From positions 32,001-96,000 of IMG/VR virus record IMGVR_UViG_3300027782_000032: 64,000 nucleotides of DNA; one strand, given 5' to 3'. The DNA comes from a virus. The translations under genes were made by a program, and so were the position numbers. Below the pieces are notes generated by a model, which did not search any database, had not been told where the DNA came from, and saw nothing but the letters and a program-made list of their open reading frames with translations. Of the stretch, positions 14,407-35,865 are shown piece after piece (within the stretch, counting starts at the first letter, position 1; every line of letters begins with the position of its first letter).

Positions 14407-15336
14407 TTACGCAAAGTCAACACGGGCAACTGCGTTGGTATTGCCGATGGCACCACCAAGAGTTTCATAGGCAAAGAATTCTAACATGTAGGCCTTTCGG
14501 TCCACATAAAGAGTTGTATCTTCAAGAATGAACGACTTGCCCAGGAACTTAGGATCAGCGAACATAAACACGCTGTCAGTAGGAACCAAGTCCTGCTTGA
14601 TGGAGATGATCCAACGAGCATTCATGAAGTTCTGTTCCGACCAGCCGTTTTTGAATACGTCCTGACTGAAGTCACCACCCATTTCCTCACGACCGAATTT
14701 CATCAGTTCGCGAATGGTAAGGTTGTTGACCAAGCAGGTACCTACTTCAAGTCGACTGATAGTTCTTGGAAGAATCTTGAAAGAGTCTTGCAAGGTGTCG
14801 CGGGTGATACCACCGTAGATGGTTTCCCACTGCACTAAGCCTGACTGAGTTACAGTAGTATCTGCAGCTCCGCCCATGGCAGCATTACAAGCAGCAATGA
14901 ATTTACGATCTTCTTCCGCTAACATATCCTTAATGGCATTATCCGAGAGGATCTGCCTGATATCCATGCGGTAAGTACGAAGTTCATCTACGTCCTTTGT
15001 GAATCGTGGGGTCACGATACGGTCAAAGGTTACTCGGTATTTCTGTCCACGAACATAAAGGTTCATAGGAAGAGTATTGAAAGGAATCGAGATTGCTGCT
15101 GGAGAATCAGGTTCACGTTCAATAATCTTTACAGGCTTATCAGTGTCGACTTGTTGATCAAGGTCGTCATTGCTGACCTGTACTGGTGGAAGAATTCTTC
15201 GGTAGAAGCCTTCTTCACGCATCCTGTACCTGGTGTAGTCGACCACTGCATCGAGTGCTCGCTTTTCCATTCCAGGAGTTTCAAGGTAGCTAAGGAACGT
15301 TTCGTTCGTCAGCTTAGTTTCATTATCGTAAGCCAT
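14407..15336 (-). CDS. Major capsid protein (HK97-fold, inferred)
   Basis: 309 aa downstream of protease/scaffold/decoration genes and followed by a terminator; EEDRKF and C-terminal ETLGGAIGNTNAVARVDF resemble capsid P-domain elements. Confidence 0.75.
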   Translation of the reverse strand: MAYDNETKLTNETFLSYLETPGMEKRALDAVVDYTRYRMREEGFYRRILPPVQVSNDDLDQQVDTDKPVKIIEREPDSPAAISIPFNTLPMNLYVRGQKYRVTFDRIVTPRFTKDVDELRTYRMDIRQILSDNAIKDMLAEEDRKFIAACNAAMGGAADTTVTQSGLVQWETIYGGITRDTLQDSFKILPRTISRLEVGTCLVNNLTIRELMKFGREEMGGDFSQDVFKNGWSEQNFMNARWIISIKQDLVPTDSVFMFADPKFLGKSFILEDTTLYVDRKAYMLEFFAYETLGGAIGNTNAVARVDFA

Positions 15337-22824: not shown

Positions 22825-25302
22825 TTACACGTTGTTGTCGTCTAGGCTGATGCCTTCGTCAGGGTACGAGTCAATAGTCTTCTGCTTGAGGAACAATAAC
22901 AAGTCTCCGAGCTGTTCAAAAGAGTTCCTAAGATTGTCTTCAAGCTCAGGAATGTCTTTCTTACCATATCGGTCTTCGAACTTGTCTTTGTGCCAATAGA
23001 AACTAAAGAGAATACGTCCAATCTTGTCTAGCCCGCCCATAAGGTCACCCAAGTGGCGATCTACCATTGTGTCATCGCGAACAGACTTGATTAAGGTACC
23101 GATCATAGAAGTATCAAACACTTCTTTCTGACCAGACTGAGCAGCGTTGTAGCCGATAGCCATAGTATTTGGATCAGGAAGCCTTGGGTCATATACGGCT
23201 GAGTTAGCCTGAAGAGACTGGCTGTTCATCGCAGGCAGAGACTGTTGCTGAGGGTATGACGACTGCACACTTCCTAACAACGTAGACTCCATACCTGTTG
23301 GAGGAGTAGGAAAAGCAGGAGCAGAGGTAGTGCCCTGCATTGATTGGTCTATTTGGTCGCCTGGAGCTGCTGACTTTATTAAGTCGCCTGCATCCTCTTT
23401 GACCGGCTTGTGTACTCTATAGTTAGCAACTTTGTTTTGCTTAGCTTCTTCCAAAATACATCGAGCTTGCTTCTCACGCAGAGCAACGTCTCGTACTAGA
23501 TGGATAAGCGCTTCCTTGGGTTCTAGAACTCTACCATTAACAGATACCTCAGAGCCAGTGTGCCTGACGTTTAAAGAGGCTGTCTTTTGATAGATAGCGT
23601 GCTGAAGGTCAGTAAGATTTCCAGGGACGATAGAGCCGTCACCTGTGCAACAATCACCTGACAACTTTATCATTTTAAAATTACCAGGAATATAAAGGTC
23701 TCCCTTAATAGCTTTGATACGGGAGCCTGGTTTATCAGTTACGTACAGCTTACGTCCGCCGCCTATTACATTGTTACTGTAACCATGGTCGTCACAACCA
23801 TCGCTTACTTTAGATTTTGGAAGATAGGACGGCTTCTGCTGTGAAGCAGAGTCGTGATAAAGTACTCTGTAGTTCTTAGTGCCGTCAGACGCACTGTCTG
23901 TCTTAAGTACTTCAAAGGGAACGCTAGCGTCTCCACTTTCGCTGACTGCCATGTAAATACCGCCCTTTGTTAACGAGGACGATTCTGGAAGCTTCTCAAA
24001 AAACTTAGCATAGCTGTCACCGCTAGTTTTGCTTTCTGGTGAGTCTTGTCCGCCATCTCTTGGTGGTCTGGTAAACAGATTACCTGGATGGCTGTTGATC
24101 CAACTTTTTTCTCCCTCGTAGTTAACTACTGTGGCGAAGTCTTGCCTTCCAGAAGGTCCGTGAGGCATTAGGAAGATTACAGTCTTTAACATTGAGAAAG
24201 GAGAAACAAGAAGGTCGTAAACTCCAGTAGTTGGAGGATTTTCTATTGAGGTTGGCTCTTGAATTCTGTAAGCGATAGATGCTTCATCTTTGGTTCTAGC
24301 ATCCCTAAAGATAACTCCATCAGTAAGAAGCTTTTTCTTATCTGGTTCTGAAGAATCCATAATGTCTTCTGAGCCGTTAGATGAAGAATTAAAGCTTCTT
24401 ACAATAATAGTAAGAGCCTGCTTCTCTTGATGTCTTAGCTGTACGGTGTCTTCAGCGAGAACGCCTGGCTCTGTTAACGTGCCAAGCTTGGCAACTGCAT
24501 CTTTAAGAAAGTCATTACCGCATGTACTATCAATAGCTTCTGCCATCTTAGGAAACCGTTGACAGATATCGATAATGCCTTTTACAAGCTCTCGGTAAGC
24601 ACTTTTACTATGAGAAGCTTCTTTATTTAGAAATGATTTTAGAGTAATTGTCTTAGCGAACTTAGGATCGTGCACAGGGTTAGAGCAAGCGAACTTAGCG
24701 AAAGCTCTTACACCTTCCATCATCTCATCAGAGTCATCAGCAGGCTTGTTAGCCGAAGCGAACTTAGCTGGAGGTCTGCTAAACGCTTGAAGGTCAGGAG
24801 TAAGGAAGCCAAGACGGCCCATGTTCTGGTCGGTCTTCTTGCCAAGGCTGGCTGGCTTACGGCGTAGAATGTAGTTAAGCCAGTTTTCTTTAAGAGGTAC
24901 GAATTGATCTTGGTCTTTAAGATAAAGCAGCTCATGACCCTTAAGGTCGCCATTAATAAAGAACACTGGCGCATACAGCCACTGGCTGCCAACTTTAAAA
25001 CCAAACAGACCAACTGCTTTGGTGTTGTCTTCGTTGCGCTCCATAAGCTCAAAGCCTACTTCGTAGTCTAGAAGTCCTGGGGCTTTGTCTTTTAAATAAG
25101 CGTGTGCAAGATTGCTGAAAGCCTGTTCAAACTGAGTATCATTGCCTTCGCCTCCAAGTTCAGCTTGCTTAACAAGCCCTTTAACTAAAGAAGGTAACTC
25201 AAGTAAAAACGACTTATTGTTATTGCTCATATTTCTTAACCTTCCATGGCTTAGAAAGTAACACAGAGCCATTATGCTCTTTATTGGTTCACTCTGCAAC
25301 AA
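22825..25302 (-). CDS. Large hypothetical head-associated protein (start may be ATG 25230)
   Basis: 825 aa; VKQAE, AKFAS, EKQAL, QKTAS, IKSAA motifs. Confidence 0.55.
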   Translation of the reverse strand: MLQSEPIKSIMALCYFLSHGRLRNMSNNNKSFLLELPSLVKGLVKQAELGGEGNDTQFEQAFSNLAHAYLKDKAPGLLDYEVGFELMERNEDNTKAVGLFGFKVGSQWLYAPVFFINGDLKGHELLYLKDQDQFVPLKENWLNYILRRKPASLGKKTDQNMGRLGFLTPDLQAFSRPPAKFASANKPADDSDEMMEGVRAFAKFACSNPVHDPKFAKTITLKSFLNKEASHSKSAYRELVKGIIDICQRFPKMAEAIDSTCGNDFLKDAVAKLGTLTEPGVLAEDTVQLRHQEKQALTIIVRSFNSSSNGSEDIMDSSEPDKKKLLTDGVIFRDARTKDEASIAYRIQEPTSIENPPTTGVYDLLVSPFSMLKTVIFLMPHGPSGRQDFATVVNYEGEKSWINSHPGNLFTRPPRDGGQDSPESKTSGDSYAKFFEKLPESSSLTKGGIYMAVSESGDASVPFEVLKTDSASDGTKNYRVLYHDSASQQKPSYLPKSKVSDGCDDHGYSNNVIGGGRKLYVTDKPGSRIKAIKGDLYIPGNFKMIKLSGDCCTGDGSIVPGNLTDLQHAIYQKTASLNVRHTGSEVSVNGRVLEPKEALIHLVRDVALREKQARCILEEAKQNKVANYRVHKPVKEDAGDLIKSAAPGDQIDQSMQGTTSAPAFPTPPTGMESTLLGSVQSSYPQQQSLPAMNSQSLQANSAVYDPRLPDPNTMAIGYNAAQSGQKEVFDTSMIGTLIKSVRDDTMVDRHLGDLMGGLDKIGRILFSFYWHKDKFEDRYGKKDIPELEDNLRNSFEQLGDLLLFLKQKTIDSYPDEGISLDDNNV

Positions 25303-25334: not shown

Positions 25335-25691
25335 TTATCTAGGCCGCATACTGAGAATATTTTCAGTTAAGCTTCCGCTCTTCATAAGCTCAAGCATGAC
25401 CTCTGCCATCTTAGCATAATTATTACCTTGGGTGTTAGTGGAGACGTCTCCACTACTTTGAGCCACTGCTGCTGCTTGATTTGACACAGGCGGCAGCATC
25501 GTAGAAGGGGCCATAAGAGCTGGCGAAGTGTTAACGTTCTTTACATCTTGAGGTGATGGTTTTTCTGATTTTGCTGCAGATAAAGATGGTGAAGCCCCTG
25601 CAGAAGGAATGGTGGGAGCAGTCAATGGCTTTAAAGCTGAAGGCTTACTAGGCTGACCCATGTTAGCCCACTTGTGTATAAAGTCGCTCAT
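25335..25691 (-). CDS. Small Pro/Ser-rich hypothetical protein
   Basis: 118 aa, coupled to the stop of the RNAP beta'-C gene. Confidence 0.55.
   Translation of the reverse strand: MSDFIHKWANMGQPSKPSALKPLTAPTIPSAGASPSLSAAKSEKPSPQDVKNVNTSPALMAPSTMLPPVSNQAAAVAQSSGDVSTNTQGNNYAKMAEVMLELMKSGSLTENILSMRPR
25436..25455. repeat. Dispersed palindrome copy 4 (20-bp perfect: TAGTGGAGACGTCTCCACTA)
   Basis: Core at 25438-25453; encodes SGDVST. Confidence 0.95.
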
Positions 25692-27610
25692 TATAAAACT
25701 CCGTCATTTTCAATTGGTTTAAGTATTTCACTCTTAGGTTTTTCTACTTTAAATCCTTTTACTGGACCGCTCTTACCAAAGTCTACAGCCTTGGCTAATG
25801 ACGGCACATAGGACGTGCCCTTCTCGTCGCTTACCGCACCACGATGCACGGCATTTAAAGTTGACTTTCTAAGATTGCTTCCAAGCATTCTAGTCATCCA
25901 GTCTGGGTCATGCTGAAGGTTTTCCAAACCCCTAACGAAGTGAGCTTCAAACGGAGCAGGGTCTTTGTGAACAGTAATCTTAGAGACACCAAACTCATTT
26001 AAGTCTTTTATCATAGAAGGCTTGATAGGAGTCCCTATACTGTAGTGCAGCACGGGCTGCTCAAGGTATTTACCAATAGCTTCTCTTGGATTTACTATGG
26101 TATGTCCTTCTCTAGGTTCCCAATCGTGTTCTACCGAGTCATAAGGTACGACGTCGTCTGGAGCGTACTGCTTGTACTCATCGCTCATCTTGACGTGATT
26201 GATAAGGCCTTTCGACATGACTTCTATGTTGCGTCTGTTTCCAGACATGCCTGCGCCTTTCATGGCTCCTTTAAAGGCTTGTACAAACTGACGCCTACCT
26301 TCACCTATTCCTTTGAACCTAGTAAGCATAGCAGGGTTGGCAATACCGTCAGACAATGTGTCCCCAGCCTCTACTACATCGTTAAGCTTCACAGACAAGT
26401 TTACTCCAGGGTTTACGTGGTGCTCAACTCCGTCTATCGCTATGAATGTGCCACCTGTAGGAGCTTCTTTAATTCCAGTAACCTTACCATCACGCTGAGC
26501 ATGAGCTGCCCAGTAAGGAGACTGCTTAGGTGATTGAACAAGCTGGTTTAAGTGTTTAAAGCCTGAGACTGCCCCAGCTGCTCCAGCTACTCCACCTGTG
26601 TGCTTAGAGCTTAGCTGACCTTGAGAAATAGGCTCGGATAGAGCTTGCATAGCGGCAATACCTATGGCGTCGCCTATTGGAGCAAAGCTGCCTCTTTCCC
26701 TTATGCCTAAATCTCTAGAGTATAGCCCTCCGTCAGGAGCTCCAGTTGCTATAGGGCTTCTTACTAAGAGCCTTTTTACGTTGTTAGCCTTTAAGTCTTT
26801 TATAACTCTAGGTGTAAGCACGGTGTTTCTAGCATAGCCCCCAGCTGCCATAGCTAGAAGCGCGCCTTCGTTATCATCATCCTCTATGTCTACAGGAAGT
26901 CCACGGCTTTCAAACCGTTTAGGATCGTCAGCGTCGTCACCTACGACAACCATTCTATGACCTATCTGATTTAGCTGTTTTGAAAAGAATCCAGCGTCCA
27001 TTGTTGCGAACTTAGTATCAGCAACTCCTTTACGGGCACCGAATGCTCCAGCAAAGTACTCAGCAGGATTTAAGCCTTTAGAGTATGAGTTGAACACAGG
27101 AATGGGAATAGCATTATCGTGATGATCGGTGTAGAGTAGATCTCCACCTCTAAGGCTTTTAAGGTTCATCGGCTTACCACGCGACCCTGACTGAATCTGT
27201 CTAGCTAGCTGGTTACCTTCTCGTAGTGAGTCATCAAATATGCCTTTTTCCATACCGCTTTGAGCATTGTTAAGCAGCTCAATCATACTACTATTTTTAG
27301 TGTCTTCATCTATTCTAGAGTTTCTCATTATTCCATCTATAGCTAGCTTTAGCTTAGCCTTAGCGTCTATAGAGTGATTAGACTCCCTTAGGTCTTTTAG
27401 TCCGAATGAAAATCCTCCACTGTTATAAGACACATCTCTACCGATATCAAAAAGCTTCTTTGATATGTCTTTGTACTTCTCTGGATGATTTTGAGCTATG
27501 ATCTGCATAAGCGAAGCAGAAGCTTTTGAATCTAAAGATCTGGTGTAATCTCTTAGCTCTGCAGGAAGGGCGTCGTTAACCATGATCTGACCTATGGTGG
27601 TCTTAAGCAT
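25691..27610 (-). CDS. rpoC: Multisubunit RNA polymerase, C-terminal half of beta' (bridge helix, trigger loop)
   Basis: SGSRG; GLNPAEYFAGAFGARKGVADT...AGFFSKQL (bridge helix); GDAIGIAAMQALSEPISQGQLSSKHTGG (trigger loop). Confidence 0.93.
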   Translation of the reverse strand: MLKTTIGQIMVNDALPAELRDYTRSLDSKASASLMQIIAQNHPEKYKDISKKLFDIGRDVSYNSGGFSFGLKDLRESNHSIDAKAKLKLAIDGIMRNSRIDEDTKNSSMIELLNNAQSGMEKGIFDDSLREGNQLARQIQSGSRGKPMNLKSLRGGDLLYTDHHDNAIPIPVFNSYSKGLNPAEYFAGAFGARKGVADTKFATMDAGFFSKQLNQIGHRMVVVGDDADDPKRFESRGLPVDIEDDDNEGALLAMAAGGYARNTVLTPRVIKDLKANNVKRLLVRSPIATGAPDGGLYSRDLGIRERGSFAPIGDAIGIAAMQALSEPISQGQLSSKHTGGVAGAAGAVSGFKHLNQLVQSPKQSPYWAAHAQRDGKVTGIKEAPTGGTFIAIDGVEHHVNPGVNLSVKLNDVVEAGDTLSDGIANPAMLTRFKGIGEGRRQFVQAFKGAMKGAGMSGNRRNIEVMSKGLINHVKMSDEYKQYAPDDVVPYDSVEHDWEPREGHTIVNPREAIGKYLEQPVLHYSIGTPIKPSMIKDLNEFGVSKITVHKDPAPFEAHFVRGLENLQHDPDWMTRMLGSNLRKSTLNAVHRGAVSDEKGTSYVPSLAKAVDFGKSGPVKGFKVEKPKSEILKPIENDGVL

Positions 27611-27612
27611 GA

Positions 27613-27831
27613 TTAAGCTCCTATGTTTATTTTCTTAACAATAGGAGGATTAATTCCATATTGCCTTAATATTTCTGTAAAACCATTATCTGCAGCTGTG
27701 TAGCAGATAATGGTGCTGTTTGGATTCTCTAGAAACAAGGCTATAGGATTACTGTCTTTATCGTAAACAACTATCCTTGTAGCTTTAACAACTGGACTAA
27801 CATCAAACAAGTTGTGGTAATCAAGAAACAT
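27613..27831 (-). CDS. Small hypothetical protein
   Basis: 72 aa filling the gap between co-oriented genes. Confidence 0.5.
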   Translation of the reverse strand: MFLDYHNLFDVSPVVKATRIVVYDKDSNPIALFLENPNSTIICYTAADNGFTEILRQYGINPPIVKKINIGA

Positions 27832-27835
27832 GATA

Positions 27836-28492
27836 CTAGTCTTTCTTAAGTCTTAGTAAATGAAGAATGCCTGCTGCCTTTTCACTTACGCTGAAGTTGT
27901 CAGCCGCTGTCTTCATAGGCTGAGCTCCTTGACTTGGAGCACCGCTTGGACCTTGCTGTTGTCCGTCAGAGCCCTGCTGCCCCTTAGGGTCATCAAGAAT
28001 ATCATGAGGCAAGTTAAGCCCTAAGGATGAGTAAAGATGAGTCATGAGCTTTTGAATGCGGTGCATGTACACCTCAGTCTGAGCTCCGTCATTCTTCTTT
28101 GCAGCTCCCTTACCGCCGCCTTTAGCCTCAGCCATAGCTCGCTGCATTTCGTCTTTTACAACTGACCTGATTTGTTCTGTAGGATCAGGAGGAGCACCGC
28201 CCATAGAAGGGTCCATAGGAGGGGCACCACCAGCAGCGGCTGGGTCCATAGGAGGAGCACCACCAGCCATAGCAGGATCCATTGGAGGGGCACCACCGGC
28301 CATAGCTGGGTCCATAGGAGGAGCACCGCCAGCCATAGCAGGATCCATTGGAGGAGCTCCTTGTGGAGGAGCGCCGCCCATAGAAGGATCCATTGGAGGA
28401 GCGCCTGGAGGAGCCCCTGCTTGTTCTGGAGGCATGAATGCCTGCTTGACTCTAAGCTGTGCCTGCTTCAAAAGATACTTATTGATAGCCAT
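27836..28492 (-). CDS. Pro/Gly/Met-rich repeat protein
   Basis: 218 aa; tandem GGAPPMDPAMA-type repeats; LKQA, VKQA, MKTAA motifs. Confidence 0.65.
   Translation of the reverse strand: MAINKYLLKQAQLRVKQAFMPPEQAGAPPGAPPMDPSMGGAPPQGAPPMDPAMAGGAPPMDPAMAGGAPPMDPAMAGGAPPMDPAAAGGAPPMDPSMGGAPPDPTEQIRSVVKDEMQRAMAEAKGGGKGAAKKNDGAQTEVYMHRIQKLMTHLYSSLGLNLPHDILDDPKGQQGSDGQQQGPSGAPSQGAQPMKTAADNFSVSEKAAGILHLLRLKKD
28181..28435 (-). repeat. In-frame ~33-bp tandem repeats (GGAPPMDPAMA)
   Basis: About six imperfect 11-aa units; related units at 16574-16672. Confidence 0.85.
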
Positions 28493-28512
28493 GTTGATTA
28501 CCTTATTTATTA

Positions 28513-29061
28513 TTATCGAGGTTCTGCGTCTAACGCTGGCATGTTGACCTGCTTATTTTGCAAGTTATACTTTTCGTATGGGTCTAAGTAGCTGTGGGCT
28601 AGGTTTACTGGAGGAGCAATGTAATCTGAAGCATTATTAACATTACCTGACAAGTACATATCTCGGTCAGCACCTGTACGGCCCATGCCAAGTCTAATTG
28701 CGGCTTCATTAATACCGGCGCCGCCTAAGGCACCGACACCGCCACCAGCAAGAGCACCGCGGCCAAGTCGGCCAAGAATGCCTACGCCTTTCTTTCGTTT
28801 ACCAAAAAGAGCGTTGCCTATGCCGCCAACGCCAGCGCCTACGCCACCACCCAAGATAGCTGCTTGAGCTGTTGGATCAAGCCCTTTGTAATAATCTAAA
28901 GCGTTGTTACCAAGACCTTTTAACCCTGACATTGCGCTGTCACCAAGGCCTTTAAGGCTGTCCATCATGCCTTCGCCAATTGCTTGTTTTACAAGCATGC
29001 CGTTTTTACGACCTAGATAAGCAGCAAGTTTAGTTGATCGTTCGATTCTAGCGAAGTCCAT
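28513..29061 (-). CDS. Glycine-zipper protein, putative ejection protein
   Basis: ILGGGVGAGVGGIG and GALAGGGVGALGGAG; N-leader TKLAAYLG...VKQA. Confidence 0.5.
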   Translation of the reverse strand: MDFARIERSTKLAAYLGRKNGMLVKQAIGEGMMDSLKGLGDSAMSGLKGLGNNALDYYKGLDPTAQAAILGGGVGAGVGGIGNALFGKRKKGVGILGRLGRGALAGGGVGALGGAGINEAAIRLGMGRTGADRDMYLSGNVNNASDYIAPPVNLAHSYLDPYEKYNLQNKQVNMPALDAEPR

Positions 29062-29141
29062 TTCACAATCTCCATGTGGTATATAGTAAAGCCGTTAGAC
29101 AAGTTTAACCTACGATTAATAGCTATTGCTATAGCAAATAG

Positions 29142-29780
29142 CTATCCTACCAGTAAAGGCGCAGCTCTCCTAAGCAATTCAGGTCTTAGAAGGCCGTAGT
29201 CTTTTAGTACTTTAGATGTAGCCAGTAAGTCTTTGTTATGGTTACCAGCACTGTAAAGACCCAGCGCTCCACCCATAGCTGCAGGAGCCAAAGTAGCTGC
29301 TATAGATGTTGACAGAGGCTGCCCTGTTAACCTACTAGCAAGAAGACCTCCAAGGCCACCTAAGCCTGCGTATCCAGCGGCTCTAAGTGTAGGATTAGCT
29401 CTGTGCTTTGAGAAGTCGTACTTTTCAGAAGGGTCATCTTGAAGACGTCCTAGCATTCCACTTAGAGCAGGTCTGCTTATACCGTAGTTGTCCAAGTCTT
29501 CGTCAGTTGGATTAACCATGTTTCTAGCTTGGTCCATCATTGACATTGCTTCTGGCATTCTGTCAGGACCTGGCCTCATCCTTGTAGCAAGCTGCATGTT
29601 ACGAGCTGACTTCTCGGATGTTAGCTTATCCCAGTTTTTCTTGTCTGGGTAAGCTTCACTGCCTGGCTTGGCTGGAGGTGCTCCCCTTTTCTTTTTTGCT
29701 TGAACGTTAGCCCACAAGCCTGGGTTGCTCTCTGATGCAGCTGATTTAAAAAACAAATTATGCAGTCCTTGCAAGCTCAT
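29142..29780 (-). CDS. Glycine-zipper protein, putative ejection protein
   Basis: AAGYAGLGGLGGLLA and AAMGGALGLYSAG; FKSAA, EKSA; start refined to the ATG after GGAG. Confidence 0.5.
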   Translation of the reverse strand: MSLQGLHNLFFKSAASESNPGLWANVQAKKKRGAPPAKPGSEAYPDKKNWDKLTSEKSARNMQLATRMRPGPDRMPEAMSMMDQARNMVNPTDEDLDNYGISRPALSGMLGRLQDDPSEKYDFSKHRANPTLRAAGYAGLGGLGGLLASRLTGQPLSTSIAATLAPAAMGGALGLYSAGNHNKDLLATSKVLKDYGLLRPELLRRAAPLLVG

Positions 29781-29802
29781 AGTAGTCTCCAAAGTTTAAT
29801 AA

Positions 29803-29900
29803 CCCAGCTGAAAAGACTTCGTCGCTCTGACGCACTTCCGCTTCGAGCGTCGATTAGTCCCAGGAGAGTGCTAAAACAGGCCCTAGCCTTTCCAGCTAAG
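29803..29900 (-). ncRNA. Candidate structured cis-regulatory RNA (multibranch)
   Basis: 13-bp closing stem with 3 G-U pairs on the minus strand only; two internal stem-loops; ends ~12 nt before the next SD. Confidence 0.45.
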
Positions 29901-29911
29901 TACATATAATA

Positions 29912-31405
29912 TTACTCTTTACTTCCAATTTGTTTAAGTACATTTAGGAATTTTTCATTAAGTTTCTGCTTACGATTGGCAGCGTTGATCAAGTAGTCAT
30001 CTGTTGCAGGGATAGGGTCTGCACCTATACCTATATGACGCAGCAAAGATCTTAGTCTTCCTGGAGCAGTCCTAGCTATGTAACGTTCTATTGAAACTTT
30101 TCTGTCTTCTGGATCAAGATGGTCATGGCTGTCAAACCTAAGAGCTCGGCCTTCGCTCTGGCTGCTTCTAGCTGTATTCCAGTGAGGGTCAAGCAGTTGA
30201 ACTAGCTTGGTACCTTTAAACGACAAACCTTCTGTTCCTGCTGGACCTAGCAAAGCTACCTTAAGCTTATCGCTGTTGTAGTCGTCAACCAGTCTTTTAC
30301 GCTCTTTATCTGATAGTGCACCTGTAAACGAAGCTGCAGGAATACCTGCTCTGTCTAAAGCGGCTTGGTAAGGCGACAACCCTGCATCGATAAAGTTGGA
30401 GAAGATAAGAGCTTTGCCTTTAGGGTCTTTGTCTAAAAGCCCCTTAAGATTACCAAACGCTGTAGTAAGCTTTGGAGAATCATCGAAAGCTTTTTGAATG
30501 TCTTTGTTTTCTTTCATGAACGGAAGTGTTGAAAGCCCTACCTGCCTAAGCCCTGTCATAAAGCTAGACATTCTGCTTACTTCATCTTTTGTTAGAGGGT
30601 AGTTCCTCTCTAGCTTCCACCTAAGTACAGTAGGAAGCTGACCCATTATATGGCTGTTAAGGTCTGTCTGATCTCGGTTCATTTCTACGACTACGTCTTT
30701 GCGATTAACTTCAGCCTTGGGAGCTAGCGGTGCAAAGTAGTCTACCTTACCTTTTAGCTTGTCTTTAAGTTGCTGCTGATTAATTATCTCTGGCTCTGCT
30801 GGATCTGAGTTTAGAAGTCTGTTGTACCAAGTAGGACTGGCTGTGTCTTTTACATAAGTGTCTTCAAACTCATTCTTACTAACGTCCTCTCCTGTAAGTA
30901 TGTTATACGGCAATGTAAAGTCGCTAGGGTCATTTACCACTGGAGTGCCGGTAAGCATCACAACCTGTTTTGCTTTTCTAGCAGCCTCCATAAGGTTCTT
31001 AGCTTGAGCGGACGCTGGGTTTCTAAATCTGTGAGCTTCGTCTATTAGAATAGAGCCTGGGTTATCTATTGGTTTTCCAAGTGCTAGGCCGGTATGACTC
31101 ATGACGCTGCTAGGTGTTGCAGTGTCTTGGTCTATAAACTTCTCTTGCTCCTTGCGTAAGTTGTTACGTAAGGCAGCAGGAACTACAGCTGTGTAAGGTA
31201 TCTTTGACTCGTCTGCTGAAGCTAATCCGCTTAAAGTCTTACCAGAGCCAAGACTATGGTAAAGCAGCATGCGAGCTTTACCAGTTGTGTCTAGCTGTTT
31301 CTGTACCTTGTCCACTACTCCCTGCTGGTGTGGCTGCAGAGAGATATTAGGATTTAGATCGGCTTGTTTTGTGGAGACGTCTCCACTGTTGTACTCTTGG
31401 GTCAC
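29912..31405 (-). CDS. SF2 (SNF2-related) helicase/ATPase, similar to the poxvirus D6/D11 transcription helicases
   Basis: LLYHSLGSGKT (I), IDEAH (II), LTGTPVVN (III), LIFSNF (IV), AGTEGLS (V), DPHWN...QSEGRALRFDSH (VI). Confidence 0.85.
   Translation of the reverse strand: MTQEYNSGDVSTKQADLNPNISLQPHQQGVVDKVQKQLDTTGKARMLLYHSLGSGKTLSGLASADESKIPYTAVVPAALRNNLRKEQEKFIDQDTATPSSVMSHTGLALGKPIDNPGSILIDEAHRFRNPASAQAKNLMEAARKAKQVVMLTGTPVVNDPSDFTLPYNILTGEDVSKNEFEDTYVKDTASPTWYNRLLNSDPAEPEIINQQQLKDKLKGKVDYFAPLAPKAEVNRKDVVVEMNRDQTDLNSHIMGQLPTVLRWKLERNYPLTKDEVSRMSSFMTGLRQVGLSTLPFMKENKDIQKAFDDSPKLTTAFGNLKGLLDKDPKGKALIFSNFIDAGLSPYQAALDRAGIPAASFTGALSDKERKRLVDDYNSDKLKVALLGPAGTEGLSFKGTKLVQLLDPHWNTARSSQSEGRALRFDSHDHLDPEDRKVSIERYIARTAPGRLRSLLRHIGIGADPIPATDDYLINAANRKQKLNEKFLNVLKQIGSKE
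31371..31386. repeat. Dispersed palindrome copy 5 (perfect 16-mer)
   Basis: Within codons 7-12 (SGDVST) of the helicase gene. Confidence 0.95.
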
Positions 31406-31407
31406 GG

Positions 31408-34400
31408 CTACTCCACTATGACAACTTTGTCGTTGGCGTCTATCTCACCGGAACGGTATGCACGCATGGCATCAGCCTTAGTCTTGAAATAACGCTCAGG
31501 CCTCTTTGATGCTTCAGAGGTAGCTGTGTAAAGTCCGCCTTGATATTCATTCATCGGCAACTGGTGAACCTTGAAGTTCTTTACAGCAAATAGATTTCTA
31601 CTAGGAAGCATCTTCTCTATCGCATCCTTTACAGACTCATCAGTGGTTGGAACGTGATAGTTCATAGCGTCGCCATCGAAGTCGGCGCCAAACCCCTTTA
31701 CAATAATAGGAGGGACCTGAAGCGTACTACCCTTGACCAGCTTCGGCTTGAAAGCCATTACACCATATCGGTGAAGAACTGGGGCCCTAGTAATGATTAC
31801 TGGCCTTGCTTCCATCTCAGAAGTCATGGCATCCATAGCCATAGGGTCTTTCTTCTCTATCATTTCAGAGGCTTTAAATCTATCGACTCCTCTTTTTACA
31901 AGTCGTCGCATAATGAACGGCTTATAAACCGACCAAGCTCTGTCTTCAGGAAGACCTACTTGATCCATGTCCAAGTCTGGGTTAGGAGTAATAGCAGCTC
32001 GACCAACCATGTCTACGTTTGACGCAAGAAGCTTTCTCTGAAGAACGCCATACTTTGGATTGTCACCAAAGACTTGCTTTAGTATTCCCTTAACATTCTT
32101 CTGTTCTAGCTTTGGATTGGCGGAGTCTCCAAGTCCAGTAACTGCTTTAAATGAGTCGTATAAAGCTAGCCTGTGGTCTGACAGATTTGAAAAGCTCTTA
32201 GAAGCTTCTTTCATTTCATTGTTAGAGTCGATTAACTCCTTGTAAAGATAGTTAGCGTCTCCAACCATAGGCAACCCACTTTGTTGCATAACGCTTACAG
32301 GCCTGAACAAAGGAGGAAGCACTGGAACCTTGCTCATCATCCAGTCAGAAGGATGCATCTTAAGGCTCTGAGCTGTTTTAAGATAACCAAGCTTGCGCAC
32401 AGCTGTGTCACGATACGACTTCTTACCTGAGGCTATCTGAGCCCTAGCTTTTATAAGCTCTTGGTCAACGTTTATCTTTTTAAGGGCTGAGCTGATTGCT
32501 TCAGGTCCTTTAACACCGTTAAGCTCTTCCTTTCCAGAAAGAACGTCTCTAAACTTGTTCTCAGTAAGCCCTAGAATTCTTCTAATAGGCTCTTCCATGA
32601 CTGGGTTAGGCATAGATTCGTGCAGCTTAACGTGGCTCCACATAGTGCCGCCATGACCTCCTGTTAGCCTGTTATCAAAAAGGCCATCACCAGCAGGCTT
32701 CATTCCGTTTTCCCAGTCTACTGTATCTGATCTCTTAATTTCTCTATCACCGGACAGAGCGTCAACGTCTTTGTCGGTCATAGCCATAAGCTGTGTCTTA
32801 GATCCATTTCTAACTGGGTTGATTCCAGCTCCTTGAAGCTGAGCCATAAACTTTCGGTAGGTCAGCGGGACCCTTGGTATAGGTAAAGACTTTCCAGTCA
32901 TAAACGCTGCCCAGTAGTCGTCATTCTTCTGTCCCCTAATCGACCCAGCGTCCCTTAGAACCTCATGAGCACCATGAGATAGAAGTGCATTAACATCCAT
33001 AAGAGCCATGCGCTTGCTGCCTTCTTCTCCACCTTTTGCTGGAGTTTCCTCTGCAGTGTATCCGCTAGCTATACCGCGGCCTTGTCCTTTAGACTCTGAG
33101 GTATGGTGAAGCTTCATAAAGAACCTGTTACCAGTGAAGATGTTCTTTATCTTCTTACCTGATTCTGGGTCTTCGATGTCTTCCATGTCGCTAAGGTTGT
33201 TTTGCTTAAGCTCATTTATTGCAAACTCTGTAAGGTCATTAATGTTATCAAAGTCTTTTATAGCGTAGCGCTTTCCTGTCTTCTCAGCAACTTTTCCAAG
33301 AGCTGCCTCTACCATCTGGCTTGGATTGGTTCTAGTTATAACCCCTAGTGGATTAAGAAGTATTTCAAAAGGTCTACCTTGCGCGTCTCTAGGCATTTTA
33401 TCTTCTGGTATAACTGCAGCTATAACACCCTTATCTCCATACCTTCCAGAGAGCTTGTCACCTTCTTTCATCGGGTTAAGACTTTTAACAGTTACCGAAT
33501 ACCCCTTTTTAGTTTGAGCTATGTCAGTTACTATTCCTTCGTTCTCGTGATCCCATGTAGTTGTTGCGTTTGTAAACCCGTTACGTGATCTTCCAACCTG
33601 CTGATTATGGGCTCTTGACAGTATGTTAGCTTGTAAGATAAGTGGGTCACCTTTTCTTACAACTGTGCCAGCCTTTATAACACCGTTGTCATCCATGCCA
33701 GACAGGGCTTCCTTAGAGTACTCAGAAGGAAACAGAGTTAAAAAAGGCTTCTTTCCATGCTTTGAATCGTCGCCAAGCTCAGCCTCATGCTGGTACATAT
33801 GCTCTGACGTTAATCTCTTTGCTGCGCCTTCAGATATGACAATCGCGTCTTCAAAGTTGTATCCTTTGTAAGGTATGTACGCCGACCTTAGATTTGTACC
33901 TAAAGCAGCTGTACCTTTATCGTCAGTATAGTTAGACCTAGCCAATAGGTCTCCATTTCCAACTACATCTCCTACTTTTACGGTAGGCGTATTGTGCAAA
34001 AACGTCTTACGATTGAATGGAAGATTGTTGTAAATCTCTTTCTTATGCAGCTGTCCGTCATCACCCCTAATGTGTATCTCGTCTCCATCCACTTTTATAA
34101 CCTGTCCTGCTACGGTAGACCTTACAGCACCCATGTGGCCGCCATAAGATTCTTCATAAGACTTATCGTCTTCGTCTGGCATTCCCGATTGCACATAAGG
34201 AGATTCTGGGTTTTGAAGGGGTAGCGCCTGCGTAAGCATTCTAGCGCCCATCATAACTCTCTGGCCTTTAGTTGCGCTCTTAAGAGGAATCATGTTTGCT
34301 AAGTGGTTAAAGGAGCTTTCCATTCTTGGAAGCTCGTAGTTAACGTCTTTCCTGTCTACGTACTTGATCTTTCCGTTGACCAGTGCAGCTATCTTATTAT

Positions 34401-35865
34401 TGGTTTTGTCTGCCATTTGATTTGGAAAAGCTATTGCAGATCCTGCAAGCTCTTGAGGAGTTTTCCATGCGTCTTCTCCTGTATTGACGTCTCTAAAGCT
34501 ACCATAAACCTTTCCGTCTATGCCCTTACGAGAGTTGATAGCTATTCTGCTATCCACTCCAACCTTAAGAGACTCAGGAGTTAATAAAGGGTCTACAAAC
34601 CCGAAGTGAGATGGCTGCACATTACGAGCTTCTTCTGGCACTGATTGAAGAGAAGGTATACCACCCTCTCCAAGTCTACTAACCCTAGTTATCTGATTAA
34701 GCAAGTCGGCTGGGTTGACCTCTTCAAGAGGCTGACCAAGTCCGCTAGTCATAATAGCGCCATTTATCTGAGAGTCTAGAAACCCAGGAGCAAAAGAGCT
34801 TAGGTTCTTTTTAAAGCTGGCTTTCCATAGCAGCGGCCTCATTACTCTATGGGCTACCTTTACCCTTTCTGAAAATAGGTCTTCTGGCCCTATCATAGAC
34901 TGGTACGACATAGCGTCACGGTCGTCTGGATCTTGTTCTTTCCTATGAACTGCAAGCAGTTTTTTTGTAGCTGCTATGATAGAGTCTGCTGAAACATTGG
35001 CAAACGGGCTACCAAGTGTCCGTGAGTTAACCTCTGGGTCCATCTCCATCTTTGACATAGCCTCAATCACCGACTTCTTCCTGCTCTCAGGAGTGACTAC
35101 GTCGCCTGGCTTTGATTTAGCTATTCTGTTGAATATTTTATCAAGATGGCTTGGGTCGTCTGTATCAGCGTTGGCTTGGTATATTTCATTACCCCAAGCT
35201 TCTCTCAGCTGCTTGTCGCTAGCGCCCAAAGCCTTAAGAAGTGGAGTTATAGGAACAGAAGACTGACCGAATCCTATAGAAAAAACTCCTTTAGCTGGGT
35301 CAAGCGAGTATCTATGCGATGCGCCTTTTCCAGGCATTATGTTTGCGTGACTCTCTACGTCACCGCTATTTGTAACTCTTGTGAACACTCCAGGCTTAAG
35401 TCGCATCTGATTTGCCAGCGTGTACTCTGTGCCTTTTACTATAAACGTTCCCCTGTCTGTAAGATAAGGAACCTTGGCTAGAGTTGTTCTCTTAGAATCT
35501 AAGACCTCGCCTGTCTCATTATCTGTAAGGTTAAGAGTACCCTTTAGGCTTCTGCTAAGAGTGTTACCTTTTAAGATAGCTTCTTTCTGTGACTTAATTG
35601 ACTTAGTTTCTTCTTCGTCATTCCAGCCAACTTCAGCAATGCTTAAAGTGTGCCTTTGATTTACTAAAGGCTGAATGCCAGCTGCAGACGCTTGAACTCC
35701 TCCGAATATAGCAGCTCTAGTAGCTGCTACATCATCAAACCGACGCATGGTTGGCGGTGGCGCTACTGGCTTTAAAGGAGCCTTAGAACTAACCAAGCCG
35801 ACTGGCTTGCTTAGCGTCGGCTCTGGTATTAGGTTGTCTTCATCGTCTGAGAATATTCCAGCCAT
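31408..35865 (-). CDS. rpoB: Multisubunit RNA polymerase, beta fused to N-half of beta' (catalytic DFDGD)
   Basis: beta motifs GYNFEDAI, GDKLSGRYGDKGVI, ILLNPLGV, MKLHH; beta' motifs VPVLPPLFRP, LLASNVDMVGRAAI, ITRAPVLHR, GADFDGDAMNYHVP. Confidence 0.95.
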   Translation of the reverse strand: MAGIFSDDEDNLIPEPTLSKPVGLVSSKAPLKPVAPPPTMRRFDDVAATRAAIFGGVQASAAGIQPLVNQRHTLSIAEVGWNDEEETKSIKSQKEAILKGNTLSRSLKGTLNLTDNETGEVLDSKRTTLAKVPYLTDRGTFIVKGTEYTLANQMRLKPGVFTRVTNSGDVESHANIMPGKGASHRYSLDPAKGVFSIGFGQSSVPITPLLKALGASDKQLREAWGNEIYQANADTDDPSHLDKIFNRIAKSKPGDVVTPESRKKSVIEAMSKMEMDPEVNSRTLGSPFANVSADSIIAATKKLLAVHRKEQDPDDRDAMSYQSMIGPEDLFSERVKVAHRVMRPLLWKASFKKNLSSFAPGFLDSQINGAIMTSGLGQPLEEVNPADLLNQITRVSRLGEGGIPSLQSVPEEARNVQPSHFGFVDPLLTPESLKVGVDSRIAINSRKGIDGKVYGSFRDVNTGEDAWKTPQELAGSAIAFPNQMADKTNNKIAALVNGKIKYVDRKDVNYELPRMESSFNHLANMIPLKSATKGQRVMMGARMLTQALPLQNPESPYVQSGMPDEDDKSYEESYGGHMGAVRSTVAGQVIKVDGDEIHIRGDDGQLHKKEIYNNLPFNRKTFLHNTPTVKVGDVVGNGDLLARSNYTDDKGTAALGTNLRSAYIPYKGYNFEDAIVISEGAAKRLTSEHMYQHEAELGDDSKHGKKPFLTLFPSEYSKEALSGMDDNGVIKAGTVVRKGDPLILQANILSRAHNQQVGRSRNGFTNATTTWDHENEGIVTDIAQTKKGYSVTVKSLNPMKEGDKLSGRYGDKGVIAAVIPEDKMPRDAQGRPFEILLNPLGVITRTNPSQMVEAALGKVAEKTGKRYAIKDFDNINDLTEFAINELKQNNLSDMEDIEDPESGKKIKNIFTGNRFFMKLHHTSESKGQGRGIASGYTAEETPAKGGEEGSKRMALMDVNALLSHGAHEVLRDAGSIRGQKNDDYWAAFMTGKSLPIPRVPLTYRKFMAQLQGAGINPVRNGSKTQLMAMTDKDVDALSGDREIKRSDTVDWENGMKPAGDGLFDNRLTGGHGGTMWSHVKLHESMPNPVMEEPIRRILGLTENKFRDVLSGKEELNGVKGPEAISSALKKINVDQELIKARAQIASGKKSYRDTAVRKLGYLKTAQSLKMHPSDWMMSKVPVLPPLFRPVSVMQQSGLPMVGDANYLYKELIDSNNEMKEASKSFSNLSDHRLALYDSFKAVTGLGDSANPKLEQKNVKGILKQVFGDNPKYGVLQRKLLASNVDMVGRAAITPNPDLDMDQVGLPEDRAWSVYKPFIMRRLVKRGVDRFKASEMIEKKDPMAMDAMTSEMEARPVIITRAPVLHRYGVMAFKPKLVKGSTLQVPPIIVKGFGADFDGDAMNYHVPTTDESVKDAIEKMLPSRNLFAVKNFKVHQLPMNEYQGGLYTATSEASKRPERYFKTKADAMRAYRSGEIDANDKVVIVE

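What the first reader, a model, noticed from the sequence alone, without database searches (positions are those of the whole stretch)
29912..31405. Poxvirus D6/D11-like transcription helicase coupled to the phage RNAP gene
Seen: starts 2 nt after the RNAP stop; LLYHSLGSGKT, TGTPVVN and QSEGRALRFDSH; Cys-free; N-leader ending TKQA. Known: poxvirus D6 (early transcription factor) and D11 (NPH-I) have LLFHxxGxGKT and GRAIR-x-xSH motifs and are packaged with the virion RNAP for promoter opening and termination. Inference: a bacterial virus with a sigma-independent, ATPase-driven virion transcription system resembling that of NCLDVs.
Basis: partly seen in the sequence, partly recalled or inferred. 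Interest (0 to 1): 0.72.

Follow-up and report, generated by a model that had tools for sequence, protein, structure and literature searches.

The report
Virion helicase beside phage RNA polymerase
This gene encodes an intact, cysteine-free SNF2-type motor protein whose nearest relatives outside its own phage family are the giant-virus and poxvirus D11-type transcription helicases, and it is probably packed into the phage particle and injected with the phage's own RNA polymerase as a dispensable helper.

Summary
A 497-aa ORF (29912-31405) starts at a GTG 2 nt after the stop of a 1485-aa RNA polymerase gene (beta fused to the front half of beta-prime). All quoted motifs are present and there is no cysteine.

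It is an SNF2-superfamily ATPase. The best solved-structure match by sequence is vaccinia NPH-I. The extended motif VI (WN..R..Q..GRxxRxxSH..LP..R.V.V) is shared with giant-virus helicases. A tree with those columns removed groups the phage family with poxvirus and giant-virus helicases, away from RapA, phiKZ gp203 and replication-module phage helicases (98% SH-aLRT).

The homologue in Salmonella phage Arash (gp217) is abundant in virions. The family is almost always Cys-free. Natural fusions join it to beta-prime C, to nucleic-acid end-processing enzymes or to glycine-zipper modules.

- "Sigma-independent" is unsupported, because the genome encodes a sigma-like protein whose Arash homologue is found in virions.
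- The helicase is not an obligatory polymerase partner. 35 of 36 helicase-bearing phage records have the polymerase, but 12 of 17 near-complete polymerase-bearing genomes, chosen because they were not in the helicase list, lack the helicase.

Best reading (about 0.45): an injected accessory translocase that assists early transcription. Main rival (about 0.3): an injected DNA motor not specific to the polymerase. Other first-stage readers of this scan noted this gene family before, on this genome and on other DNA.

The parts
29912..31405 (-). 497-aa Cys-free SNF2-superfamily ATPase (P0001), the finding itself
31411..31414 (-). GGAG ribosome-binding site inside the end of the RNAP gene, 5 nt before the GTG start (translational coupling)
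31235..31267 (-). Motif I / Walker A (LLYHSLGSGKT, residues 47-57)
31031..31042 (-). Motif II DEAH (residues 122-125)
30932..30952 (-). Motif III TGTPVVN (residues 152-158)
30125..30160 (-). Motif VI with the D11-type extension (QSEGRALRFDSH, residues 416-427; followed by L..P..R.V.I)
31361..31372 (-). TKQA (residues 12-15). Family-wide conservation starts sharply at this K. Possible domain boundary or maturation site.
31372..31385 (.). Copy of the genome-wide palindrome TGGAGACGTCTCCA inside codons 7-12 of the helicase leader
31408..35865 (-). RNAP large chain: beta fused to the N-terminal half of beta-prime (1485 aa, 0 Cys)
25691..27610 (-). RNAP small chain: C-terminal half of beta-prime (639 aa, 0 Cys)
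29142..29792 (-). 216-aa Cys-free ORF downstream of the helicase, with a glycine-zipper C-terminus and KSA at residues 16-18
28513..29061 (-). 182-aa Cys-free glycine-zipper ORF, with KQA at residues 25-27
27836..28492 (-). 218-aa Cys-free ORF with GAPPMDPAMAG-type repeats and KQA at residues 9 and 16
22825..25302 (-). 825-aa homologue of Arash gp218, an abundant virion protein encoded right after the Arash helicase
14407..15336 (-). Major capsid protein homologue (Arash gp226, 31% identity). It places the helicase in the structural-gene module.

Best explanation
The gene encodes an active SNF2-superfamily DNA translocase of the clade that also holds the poxvirus and giant-virus D11 (NPH-I)-type helicases. 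It is made late from the structural operon, translationally coupled to the large RNAP chain. It is packed into the capsid with the two-chain phage RNAP and a sigma-like factor, and ejected into the host with the DNA. There it burns ATP on the incoming genome as an accessory factor for the co-injected polymerase. Possible roles are helping promoter opening or clearance on linear DNA that is not yet supercoiled, or releasing transcripts and stalled polymerase (like NPH-I or RapA). It is a helper, not a core subunit: related phages have lost it several times and kept the polymerase. Shown: the gene and its motifs, the family, the evolutionary affinity, the gene linkage and fusion, and virion presence of the Arash homologue. 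Inferred: packaging in this phage, and any role in transcription.
For: Intact catalytic motifs, invariant over 61 homologues. Confident Snf2 fold: pLDDT 90.5, and Z 31 to INO80 and 26.8 to the Pol II-bound translocase CSB. NPH-I is the best PDB sequence hit, at E 1.7e-9 for the single sequence and 3.3e-19 for the profile. Giant-virus D6R/VETF-type helicases are the best viral fold matches outside the family, at E 1e-33 to 1e-25, and language-model neighbours include an NPH-I cluster. The extended motif VI is shared with poxvirus and giant-virus sequences and absent from RapA, phiKZ gp203, Arash gp198, Mimi gp101 and Teatealatte gp58. The tree without those columns separates family plus giant-virus sequences from these five by a 98% SH-aLRT branch. 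Linkage to RNAP: 2-nt gap plus SD here; directly after beta-beta'N in L004-L007; directly after beta'C in Arash and within about 400 bp downstream of beta'C in L064-L066; fused as beta'C-NUDIX-helicase in P0127, a true table-11 ORF on 11 contigs. 35 of 36 helicase-bearing IMG/VR records carry the RNAP beta domain. Virion: Arash gp217 has 38 unique peptides and 1148 spectra, close to beta'C gp216 at 1210 (PMC10585845). 55 of 61 family members have no Cys. The window block 25335-35865 has 0 Cys in 3355 aa against a 0.89% background. Precedents: poxvirus NPH-I and VETF are packaged with the virion RNAP, and the yeast linear-plasmid helicase K2ORF4p co-precipitates with a beta-beta'N / beta'C polymerase (PMC6211774).
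Against: Of 22 large RNAP-bearing genomes picked through the RNAP, and chosen because they were not in the helicase list (so biased towards absence), only 5 have a strong family helicase, and 12 of 17 that are at least 90% complete lack one. None of the 16 re-tested negatives has a Pfam SNF2 domain. My own hmmsearch of the complete 204.8-kb genome G039 found nothing even at E 10. On the RNAP tree at least 3-4 gains or losses are needed. Pseudanabaena phage PA-SR01 has a Cys-free homologue among structural genes but no multisubunit RNAP. In most of the clade the helicase lies 24-35 kb from the RNAP gene, next to 2H-phosphoesterase/NUDIX/peptidase/LigD-PE genes. Most fusions are to such enzymes, not to RNAP. 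No physical interaction was tested. No member has been assayed.
Confidence: 0.45

Rival explanations
1. An injected DNA motor that is not specific to the polymerase. As one of a set of virion-delivered ('polyvalent-protein' style) enzymes, it is ejected with the genome and, possibly tethered to glycine-zipper membrane or channel modules, translocates on the entering DNA. It would pull the DNA in or strip host proteins and defence nucleases from it, as proposed for the P1 DarB type of packaged helicase.
For: In relatives the helicase is fused to LigD 3'-phosphoesterase, ATP-dependent ligase, 2H phosphoesterase, NUDIX, GNAT, pyrophosphatase, SET and C39 peptidase domains in 1000-2900-aa proteins. 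In the largest subclade it sits among genes for such enzymes. This matches the polyvalent proteins described in PMC5512222. The closest relatives outside the window's own genus (P0123, P0124, 78-79% identical) carry about 600 aa of Cys-free glycine-zipper modules after the helicase. The window's three downstream ORFs are of the same type. The helicase is lost repeatedly while the RNAP is kept. PA-SR01 has it without an RNAP. phiKZ gp203, another packaged helicase, co-pellets with virion DNA and is non-essential (PMC12676376).
Against: None of the fused forms scanned has a DNA methylase, the usual partner of polyvalent-protein SNF2 modules. The specific kinship is with transcription helicases of giant viruses. 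RNAP adjacency recurs in three arrangements and one fusion.
Confidence: 0.3
2. A replication or recombination helicase (UvsW-like branch-migration or fork-remodelling enzyme) that merely happens to lie next to the RNAP gene, its virion signal in Arash being carry-over.
For: PHROGs labels the best-matching families 'DNA helicase'. The next-nearest isolated-phage helicases (Arthrobacter phage Mimi gp101, Gordonia phage Teatealatte gp58) lie in replication/recombination modules. The Arash proteome lists 116 'virion' proteins, including obvious non-structural enzymes.
Against: Those helicases have the canonical R-I-G-S motif VI and 7-8 Cys, and fall on the far side of the 98% branch. The gene lies in the structural module on the late strand. 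Arash gp217 is among the most abundant virion signals, with 100% coverage. Near-universal Cys loss is unexpected for a cytoplasmic replication enzyme. Arash has separate replication-module helicases, gp193, gp197 and gp198.
Confidence: 0.08
3. An RNA-directed helper of an injected RNA-repair or RNA-end-processing set (2H phosphoesterase, 3'-phosphoesterase, ligase, NUDIX). It would, for example, remodel cleaved tRNA or mRNA so the partner enzymes can heal and seal them against host anticodon nucleases.
For: Recurrent fusion or adjacency with exactly these enzyme domains.
Against: The fold and motifs are those of Snf2-type double-strand DNA translocases. The window's own gene has no such domain attached. 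The fusion partners are too varied (SET, GNAT, peptidases, pyrophosphatase) for one shared biochemical pathway.
Confidence: 0.05

Closest known systems
Vaccinia virus NPH-I (D11) and giant-virus D6/D11-type helicases
   Same: SF2/SNF2 core. Shared extended motif VI, [LM][DE]PxWN..R..Q..GRxxRxxSH..LP..R.V.V. NPH-I is the best PDB sequence hit. They group together in the tree. Both are packaged in virions together with a viral multisubunit RNAP: NPH-I by established knowledge, the phage family through Arash gp217.
   Different: No NPH-I C-terminal domain (PF08469 not hit). No Rap94 or VETF large-subunit partner is recognisable. Only about 17-22% identity. The phage protein is Cys-free, while the giant-virus ones carry 8-19 Cys. 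It is dispensable in many related phages. Global structure ranks chromatin remodellers above NPH-I. D6 itself matches only weakly by sequence.
Yeast cytoplasmic linear plasmid pGKL2 transcription set (K2ORF6p beta-beta'N fusion, K2ORF7p beta'C, K2ORF4p D6/D11-like helicase; PMC6211774)
   Same: The same three-part layout: a large chain of beta fused to the front of beta-prime, a small chain with the back of beta-prime, and a D6/D11-like helicase. In yeast the helicase co-precipitates, weakly, with the polymerase.
   Different: Eukaryotic cytoplasmic element with a capping enzyme and no virion. No sequence comparison with K2ORF4p could be run here. The phage also has sigma-like factors.
phiKZ gp203 and the RNAP-linked Swi2/Snf2 helicase of phiKZ-like jumbo phages (PMC7824862)
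   Same: An SF2 helicase annotated as a structural protein. In that group its distribution is correlated with, and its gene often next to, RNAP subunit genes, and a RapA-like role has been proposed. It is non-essential and associated with packaged DNA.
   Different: A different family. Pairwise BLASTP E is 2e-4 over about 100 residues, and the profile matches only 87 positions. Motif VI is the canonical R.GQ, and it has 6 Cys. It falls on the other side of the 98% branch. AR9 and PhiPA3 give no match.
Salmonella phage Arash gp217 ('DNA helicase', PMC10585845)
   Same: True family member: 34% identity over 96% of the length. It follows an RNAP gene, is Cys-free, and is detected in virions.
   Different: It follows beta'C rather than beta-beta'N. 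It lacks the leader and the K-x-A start. The paper gives it no interpretation.
E. coli RapA (HepA)
   Same: A bacterial SNF2 ATPase that binds RNAP and recycles it; a possible functional analogue.
   Different: Not among PDB hits at E<=0.001 even with the family profile. Canonical motif VI R-I-G-Q. Used as an outgroup in the tree. It has extra N-terminal domains that are absent here.
SNF2 modules of polyvalent proteins / P1 DarB (PMC5512222)
   Same: Virion-packaged, delivered with the DNA, and embedded in multi-domain effector proteins in many relatives.
   Different: No adenine methylase partner in any form scanned. The window's gene stands alone.

Membership tests
SNF2/SWI2 superfamily (SF2) ATPase | Walker A, DExH, motif III and the arginine-bearing motif VI all intact | tested here: met
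   GSGKT, DEAH, TGTP and GRALR are present and invariant or nearly so in 61 homologues
SNF2/SWI2 superfamily (SF2) ATPase | Two RecA-like lobes with the Snf2-specific helical insertions; a curated family model matches | tested here: met
   Pfam SNF2-rel_dom 29.6 bits against a 24.9 cut-off, and Helicase_C 49 bits. AF2 model pLDDT 90.5. VIA Z 31.1 to INO80 over 405 residues at rmsd 2.6.
Giant-virus/poxvirus D6/D11-type helicase | Extended motif VI signature (GRxxRxxSH, then LP..R.V.V) in place of the canonical R-I-G-Q | tested here: met
   Shared by the window, Arash, PA-SR01, poxvirus NPH-I and GVMAG sequences; absent from five generic SNF2 proteins
Giant-virus/poxvirus D6/D11-type helicase | Groups with D6/D11 helicases rather than with other SNF2 proteins in a tree | tested here: met
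   98% SH-aLRT split with the motif columns removed. Caveats: the giant-virus rows were chosen by the motif, there are only five outgroups and all are on long branches, and the search was quick. Monophyly of the phage family is not rejected (p-AU 0.70).
Giant-virus/poxvirus D6/D11-type helicase | NPH-I C-terminal domain (Pfam PF08469), which docks NPH-I to the polymerase complex | tested here: not met
   No PF08469 hit at E<=0.1. The protein ends with one long conserved helix, residues 468-494.
Giant-virus/poxvirus D6/D11-type helicase | Packaged in the virion with the viral RNAP | tested here: inconclusive
   Published proteomics for the 34%-identical Arash gp217, plus Cys depletion. There are no data for this uncultured phage.
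Giant-virus/poxvirus D6/D11-type helicase | DNA-dependent ATPase needed for early initiation (D6) or termination and transcript release (D11) | not testable with these tools
   Needs biochemistry or genetics
RapA/HepA | Sequence and tree membership, and the RapA N-terminal domains | tested here: not met
   Not found at E<=0.001 with the family profile. Canonical RIGQ motif, and on the other side of the tree split. The protein starts directly at the helicase core.
phiKZ-type RNAP-linked Swi2/Snf2 helicase (gp203) | Full-length homology to gp203 | tested here: not met
   Only motifs II-III align; motif VI differs; on the other side of the tree split
Polyvalent-protein SNF2 module (DarB-like methylase-helicase dyad) | Fusion or adjacency to an adenine methyltransferase | tested here: not met
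   No methylase family among 46 fused relatives scanned or among the window neighbours
Polyvalent-protein SNF2 module (DarB-like methylase-helicase dyad) | Occurs inside long multi-domain virion-delivered proteins | tested here: met
   True of many relatives, but not of the window's stand-alone gene

The most novel reading that the evidence does not exclude
The D6/D11 transcription helicases of giant viruses (and of the yeast linear plasmids) share a direct common ancestor with, or descend from, this family of phage virion helicases. On this reading, the whole arrangement of 'packaged multisubunit polymerase plus packaged SNF2 helper', including the beta-beta'N / beta'C split seen in yeast plasmids, was already present in tailed phages before it appeared in eukaryotic viruses.
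Probability: 0.2. Interest if true: 0.85.

Novelty: new variant of a known kind. Interest (0 to 1): 0.6.

Why it matters
Packaged SF2 helpers of a virion RNA polymerase are textbook for poxviruses and have been proposed, on a different protein family, for phiKZ-like phages. This finding is a large, undescribed phage family: 698 cluster representatives at E<=1e-30, and at least 209 IMG/VR loci. It is the closest known prokaryotic-virus relative of the giant-virus D11-type helicases, and it sits beside a polymerase split in the same way as in yeast linear plasmids. That makes the origin of the giant-virus early-transcription machinery testable with phages, one of which (Salmonella phage Arash) is in culture. 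The repeated loss of the helicase, its fusion to counter-defence-type enzymes and its strict lack of cysteine also make it a good model for what injected phage enzymes do in the first seconds of infection.

Tried and rejected
The 'atlas' fold library was also unavailable.
- Strict co-occurrence with the RNAP was rejected. It holds from helicase to RNAP (35 of 36) but not from RNAP to helicase.
- 'Sigma-independent' was rejected.
- RapA and phiKZ gp203 membership was rejected.
- Global structure ranking does not single out NPH-I. Foldseek E-values against PDB are flat among remodellers, CSB, NPH-I and VETFs, and NPH-I is not in the VIA top 50. The D11 link therefore rests on sequence, motif and tree, not on overall fold.
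- Giant-virus helicases nested inside the phage family: the free tree puts PA-SR01 next to them (93%), but a tree with the phage family held together is at least as good (p-AU 0.70). Direction of descent stays open.
- The N-leader as a conserved cleavable signal is unresolved. Leader sequences are not conserved, Arash gp217 has none and some homologues start 2-3 residues before the K. Conservation begins sharply at K-x-A both in stand-alone and in internal copies. K[QS]A also lies near the N-terminus of the three next ORFs, with only modest enrichment: 8 of 30 hits fall in the first 40 residues against 12% expected.
- Consensus promoter and terminator scans around the gene were not above shuffles.
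- tblastn with the window's RNAP found it within 10 kb of the helicase in only a minority of 80 loci.
Full report
**1. What is there**

The plus-strand frame of 29912-31405 is full of stops. The gene is on the minus strand and encodes 497 aa from a GTG at 31405. The upstream gene (31408-35865, minus, 1485 aa) carries the Rpb2_6/Rpb2_3 domains of RNAP beta. These are followed by the Rpb1_1/Rpb1_2 domains of beta-prime, including the ADFDGD catalytic loop. Its TAG stop is 2 nt from the GTG, and a GGAG lies 5 nt upstream, so the two genes are translationally coupled.

The rest of beta-prime (Rpb1_5) is a 639-aa ORF at 25691-27610. The helicase therefore lies between the two polymerase genes. The window is part of a 92,955-bp IMG/VR virus record estimated to be 45% complete.

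**2. Family and fold**

- Pfam gives Helicase_C, ResIII and SNF2-rel_dom above their cut-offs.
- A word-index search found 311 relatives. An exhaustive profile-free search found 10,522 cluster representatives at E<=0.001 and 698 at E<=1e-30.
- Across 61 homologues down to 40% identity, the Walker A, DEAH, motif III, motif V and motif VI residues are invariant or nearly so.
- An AlphaFold2 model from that alignment is confident (pLDDT 90.5, pTM 0.86).
- The model is a two-lobed Snf2-type ATPase. VIA-align gives Z 31.1 to INO80 (405 residues, rmsd 2.6), 29.4 to SNF2h and 26.8 to CSB bound to Pol II.

**3. Is it D6/D11-like?** Four lines of evidence were checked.

- (a) Sequence against all PDB chains. 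Vaccinia NPH-I (D11) is the best hit: E 1.7e-9 with the single sequence, and 3.3e-19 (72 bits) with the family profile. The next hits are an archaeal Snf2/Rad54 core (67 bits) and ISWI (59 bits). VETF small subunit (D6) scores only 0.13 and 2e-8. RapA does not appear. The NPH-I advantage lies in the C-terminal lobe.
- (b) Foldseek against predicted viral structures. After a 598-residue chain with no name in the tables at hand (29% identity; the same length as the PA-SR01 family member), the best matches are giant-virus proteins named 'early transcription factor 70 kDa subunit', 'VV D6R-type helicase' or 'DEAD/SNF2-like helicase' (E 2.5e-33 to 4e-25). These rank ahead of other phage SNF2 helicases. 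Variola NPH-I ranks 38th. Language-model neighbours include Nucleocytoviricota clusters, one carrying the NPH-I C-terminal Pfam domain.
- (c) Motif. The window (GRALRFDSH), Arash gp217 (ARGIRYRSH), PA-SR01 (GRAARYKSH) and NPH-I (GRAIRLNSH) share R..R..SH followed by LP..R.V.V. Replication-module phage helicases (Mimi gp101, Teatealatte gp58), phiKZ gp203, Arash gp198 and E. coli RapA keep the canonical R-I-G-S/Q. A DNA pattern for W-N-x5-Q-x2-G-R-A-I-R-x2-S-H found at least 120 IMG/VR stretches, many on contigs named GVMAG and on poxvirus-length isolate genomes. One of them reproduces the NPH-I stretch aligned. By my own rough estimate, fewer than one chance match is expected.
- (d) Tree. The motif columns were removed, leaving 423 columns (LG+C20 PMSF, quick search). 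A branch of length 0.8 with 98% SH-aLRT separates phage family plus giant-virus rows from all five outgroups. The giant-virus rows form one group (97%). The free tree places PA-SR01 next to the giant-virus group, but a tree with the phage family held together is at least as good (p-AU 0.70). Sister or nested position therefore stays open.

Caveats on the tree: the giant-virus rows were ascertained by the motif, the outgroups are few and sit on long branches, and no D6 orthologue was sampled explicitly.

The NPH-I C-terminal domain is absent. In overall structure, chromatin remodellers rank above NPH-I. My conclusion is that the protein belongs to the same SNF2 sub-branch as the D11-type helicases and is not an NPH-I orthologue.

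**4. Virion packaging**

The only cultured relative with data is Salmonella phage Arash (34% identity). There gp216 (beta'C) is followed, with overlapping stop and start, by gp217 (helicase) and then by virion proteins. Published virion proteomics found these counts (PMC10585845):

| Arash protein | Role | Unique peptides | Spectra |
|---|---|---|---|
| gp217 | helicase | 38 (100% coverage) | 1148 |
| gp216 | beta'C | 40 | 1210 |
| gp206 | beta + beta'N | 128 | 3516 |
| gp10 | sigma-like | 24 | 467 |

That proteome is permissive (116 proteins), so carry-over cannot be excluded.

The cysteine counts give independent support:

- 55 of 61 family members have no Cys.
- The contiguous window block 25335-35865 comprises a 118-aa ORF, beta'C, a 218-aa ORF, a 182-aa ORF, a 216-aa ORF, the helicase and beta-beta'N. 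It has 0 Cys in 3355 residues, against 0.89% in the window as a whole. A 72-aa ORF at 27613-27831, lying between these, was not counted and has one Cys.
- The large RNAP chain is Cys-free across the clade, apart from long forms that presumably carry inteins.
- The Arash primase, ribonucleotide reductase and replication helicase have 5-12 Cys each.

Window ORFs match the Arash capsid protein gp226 and the virion proteins gp218, gp222, gp233, gp234 and gp236 in the same order. The gene therefore lies in the structural module.

**5. Link to the polymerase, for and against**

For:

- The helicase sits directly after beta-beta'N here and in L004-L007.
- It sits directly after beta'C in Arash, and within about 400 bp downstream of beta'C in L064-L066.
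- It is fused as beta'C-NUDIX-helicase in the 1774-aa protein P0127. This reads as one table-11 ORF and occurs on 11 contigs, 2 kb downstream of a 1468-aa beta-beta'N gene.
- 35 of 36 helicase-bearing IMG/VR records contain the RNAP beta domain. The one exception is 60% complete.

Against:

- I tested 22 large genomes found through the RNAP and deliberately not in the helicase list, a choice biased towards absence. Only 5 have a strong family helicase, and 12 of 17 that are at least 90% complete lack it.
- None of the 16 re-tested negatives has a Pfam SNF2 domain.
- My own hmmsearch on all six-frame ORFs of the complete 204.8-kb genome G039 gave no hit at E<=10.
- The RNAP is also more widespread in public data: at least 550 against 209 IMG/VR loci, and 1264 against 311 proteins in the capped word searches, which used different E-value limits.
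- On an RNAP tree, helicase presence needs at least 3-4 changes. The two deepest lineages (Arash, L191) have it, which suggests ancestral presence with repeated loss.
- One lineage (L136/L008) has a helicase 67% identical to the window's but an RNAP only 51% identical. This hints at transfer between phages.
- PA-SR01 (137 kb, complete) has a Cys-free homologue among structural genes but no RNAP beta or beta-prime domain.

**6. Other associations**

Many representatives are 600-2900 aa long, with the helicase fused to LigD 3'-phosphoesterase, ATP-dependent ligase, 2H phosphoesterase, NUDIX, GNAT, inorganic pyrophosphatase, SET or C39-peptidase domains. In the largest subclade the stand-alone gene sits among genes for such domains. 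This is the architecture described for virion-delivered 'polyvalent proteins' (PMC5512222), except that no methylase is present.

The nearest relatives outside the window's own genus (P0123, P0124, 78-79% identical) carry about 600 Cys-free residues of glycine-zipper segments after the helicase. The window's three downstream ORFs are glycine-zipper or repeat proteins. Several fusion partners have stand-alone homologues elsewhere in this genome. The commonest is the N-terminal domain of the 439-aa ORF at 38621-39940 (39 hits). Such fusions argue strongly for co-packaging and co-delivery. They argue only weakly for a shared biochemical task.

**7. Sigma**

The genome encodes a 275-aa ORF outside the window (G000:C1:74254-75081). 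It is homologous to Arash gp10 (E 4e-17) and has a Sigma70 region 3 match above the cut-off. Arash gp10 is a virion protein, and Arash has a second sigma-like gene, gp196. 'Sigma-independent' is therefore not supported.

**8. Prior knowledge**

- Iyer et al. 2021 (PMC7824862) described a Swi2/Snf2 helicase in phiKZ-like phages that is correlated with, and often adjacent to, RNAP subunit genes. They proposed a RapA-like role.
- phiKZ gp203 is annotated as a structural protein. It is processed, packaged, bound to virion DNA and non-essential (PMC12676376).
- That protein is a different family.
- The yeast plasmid pGKL2 has the same beta-beta'N / beta'C / D6-D11-like helicase trio, and the helicase associates weakly with the polymerase (PMC6211774).
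- I found no paper that describes the present family or its kinship with giant-virus helicases. The library searched is incomplete.

**9. Verdict**

The most likely role is an injected accessory translocase that assists the co-injected polymerase (0.45). The main rival is an injected DNA motor or counter-defence protein that is not specific to the polymerase (0.3). No member has been assayed. Other first-stage readers of this scan had noted the same gene and relatives on other DNA with similar ideas. I tested their claims independently.

Noticed in passing
window 2176, 18125, 25439, 31372, 39475, 48188, 53667, 60763 (14 bp each): Exact palindrome TGGAGACGTCTCCA: 8 copies against 0 expected, spaced about 5-16 kb apart. 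One copy lies in codons 7-12 of the helicase (read as S-G-D-V-S-T), and homologues P0016 and P0019 also read GDVS there. The scan had already noted it.
   Followed up: partly
window 25335-35865: Contiguous block with no cysteine in the seven ORFs counted, 3355 residues in all (both RNAP chains, the helicase and four smaller ORFs), against 0.89% Cys in the window overall. The next five ORFs upstream have one Cys each.
   Followed up: yes
window 27836-31405 (N-termini of four consecutive ORFs): K-Q-A or K-S-A lies 9-25 residues from the start of the helicase and of the 216-, 182- and 218-aa ORFs. The 825-aa gp218-like virion protein has five such sites. It may be a maturation-protease or packaging-leader motif. 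The enrichment is modest.
   Followed up: partly
window 27836-28492: 218-aa ORF with about seven tandem GAPPMDP(A/S)M(A/G)G repeats and a weak Mucin-like Pfam hit. Cys-free.
   Followed up: no
window 38621-39940: 439-aa ORF whose N-terminal domain of about 110 aa is the commonest fusion partner of the helicase in other phages (39 tblastn hits). Its C-terminal two thirds are glycine-zipper segments. No Pfam or PHROG match.
   Followed up: partly
G000:C1:74254-75081 (outside the window; L111:1390-2217): 275-aa sigma-like ORF (Sigma70_r3 at 26.9 bits; weak region 4), homologous to the virion-detected Arash gp10.
   Followed up: partly
P0061, P0096, P0103 (helicase); P0304, P0307, P0366 (beta'C); L151, L154, L167, L181, L185 (RNAP large chain): Intein or homing-endonuclease Pfam domains (PF14890, PF07591, PF14528), or unexplained extra length of 350-500 aa with 7-13 Cys, interrupt some helicase and RNAP homologues.
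   Followed up: no
L008/L136 (IMGVR_UViG_3300027782_000034): Its helicase is 67% identical to the window's but its RNAP only 51%. Its closest RNAP relative, L137, is a complete genome that lacks the helicase. This suggests transfer of the helicase gene between phage lineages.
   Followed up: partly
L090-L094, and G029, G033, G034, G036: In some relatives the open frame around the RNAP beta domain is 2100-3000 aa long. Beta and the whole of beta-prime may be one chain there.
   Followed up: no
window 29142-29792: The 216-aa ORF has an N-terminal motif (NPGLWANVQAKKKRG) that matches the N-termini of four unrelated PHROG families. A homologous stretch lies just upstream of the helicase in L008 and L018.
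   Followed up: no
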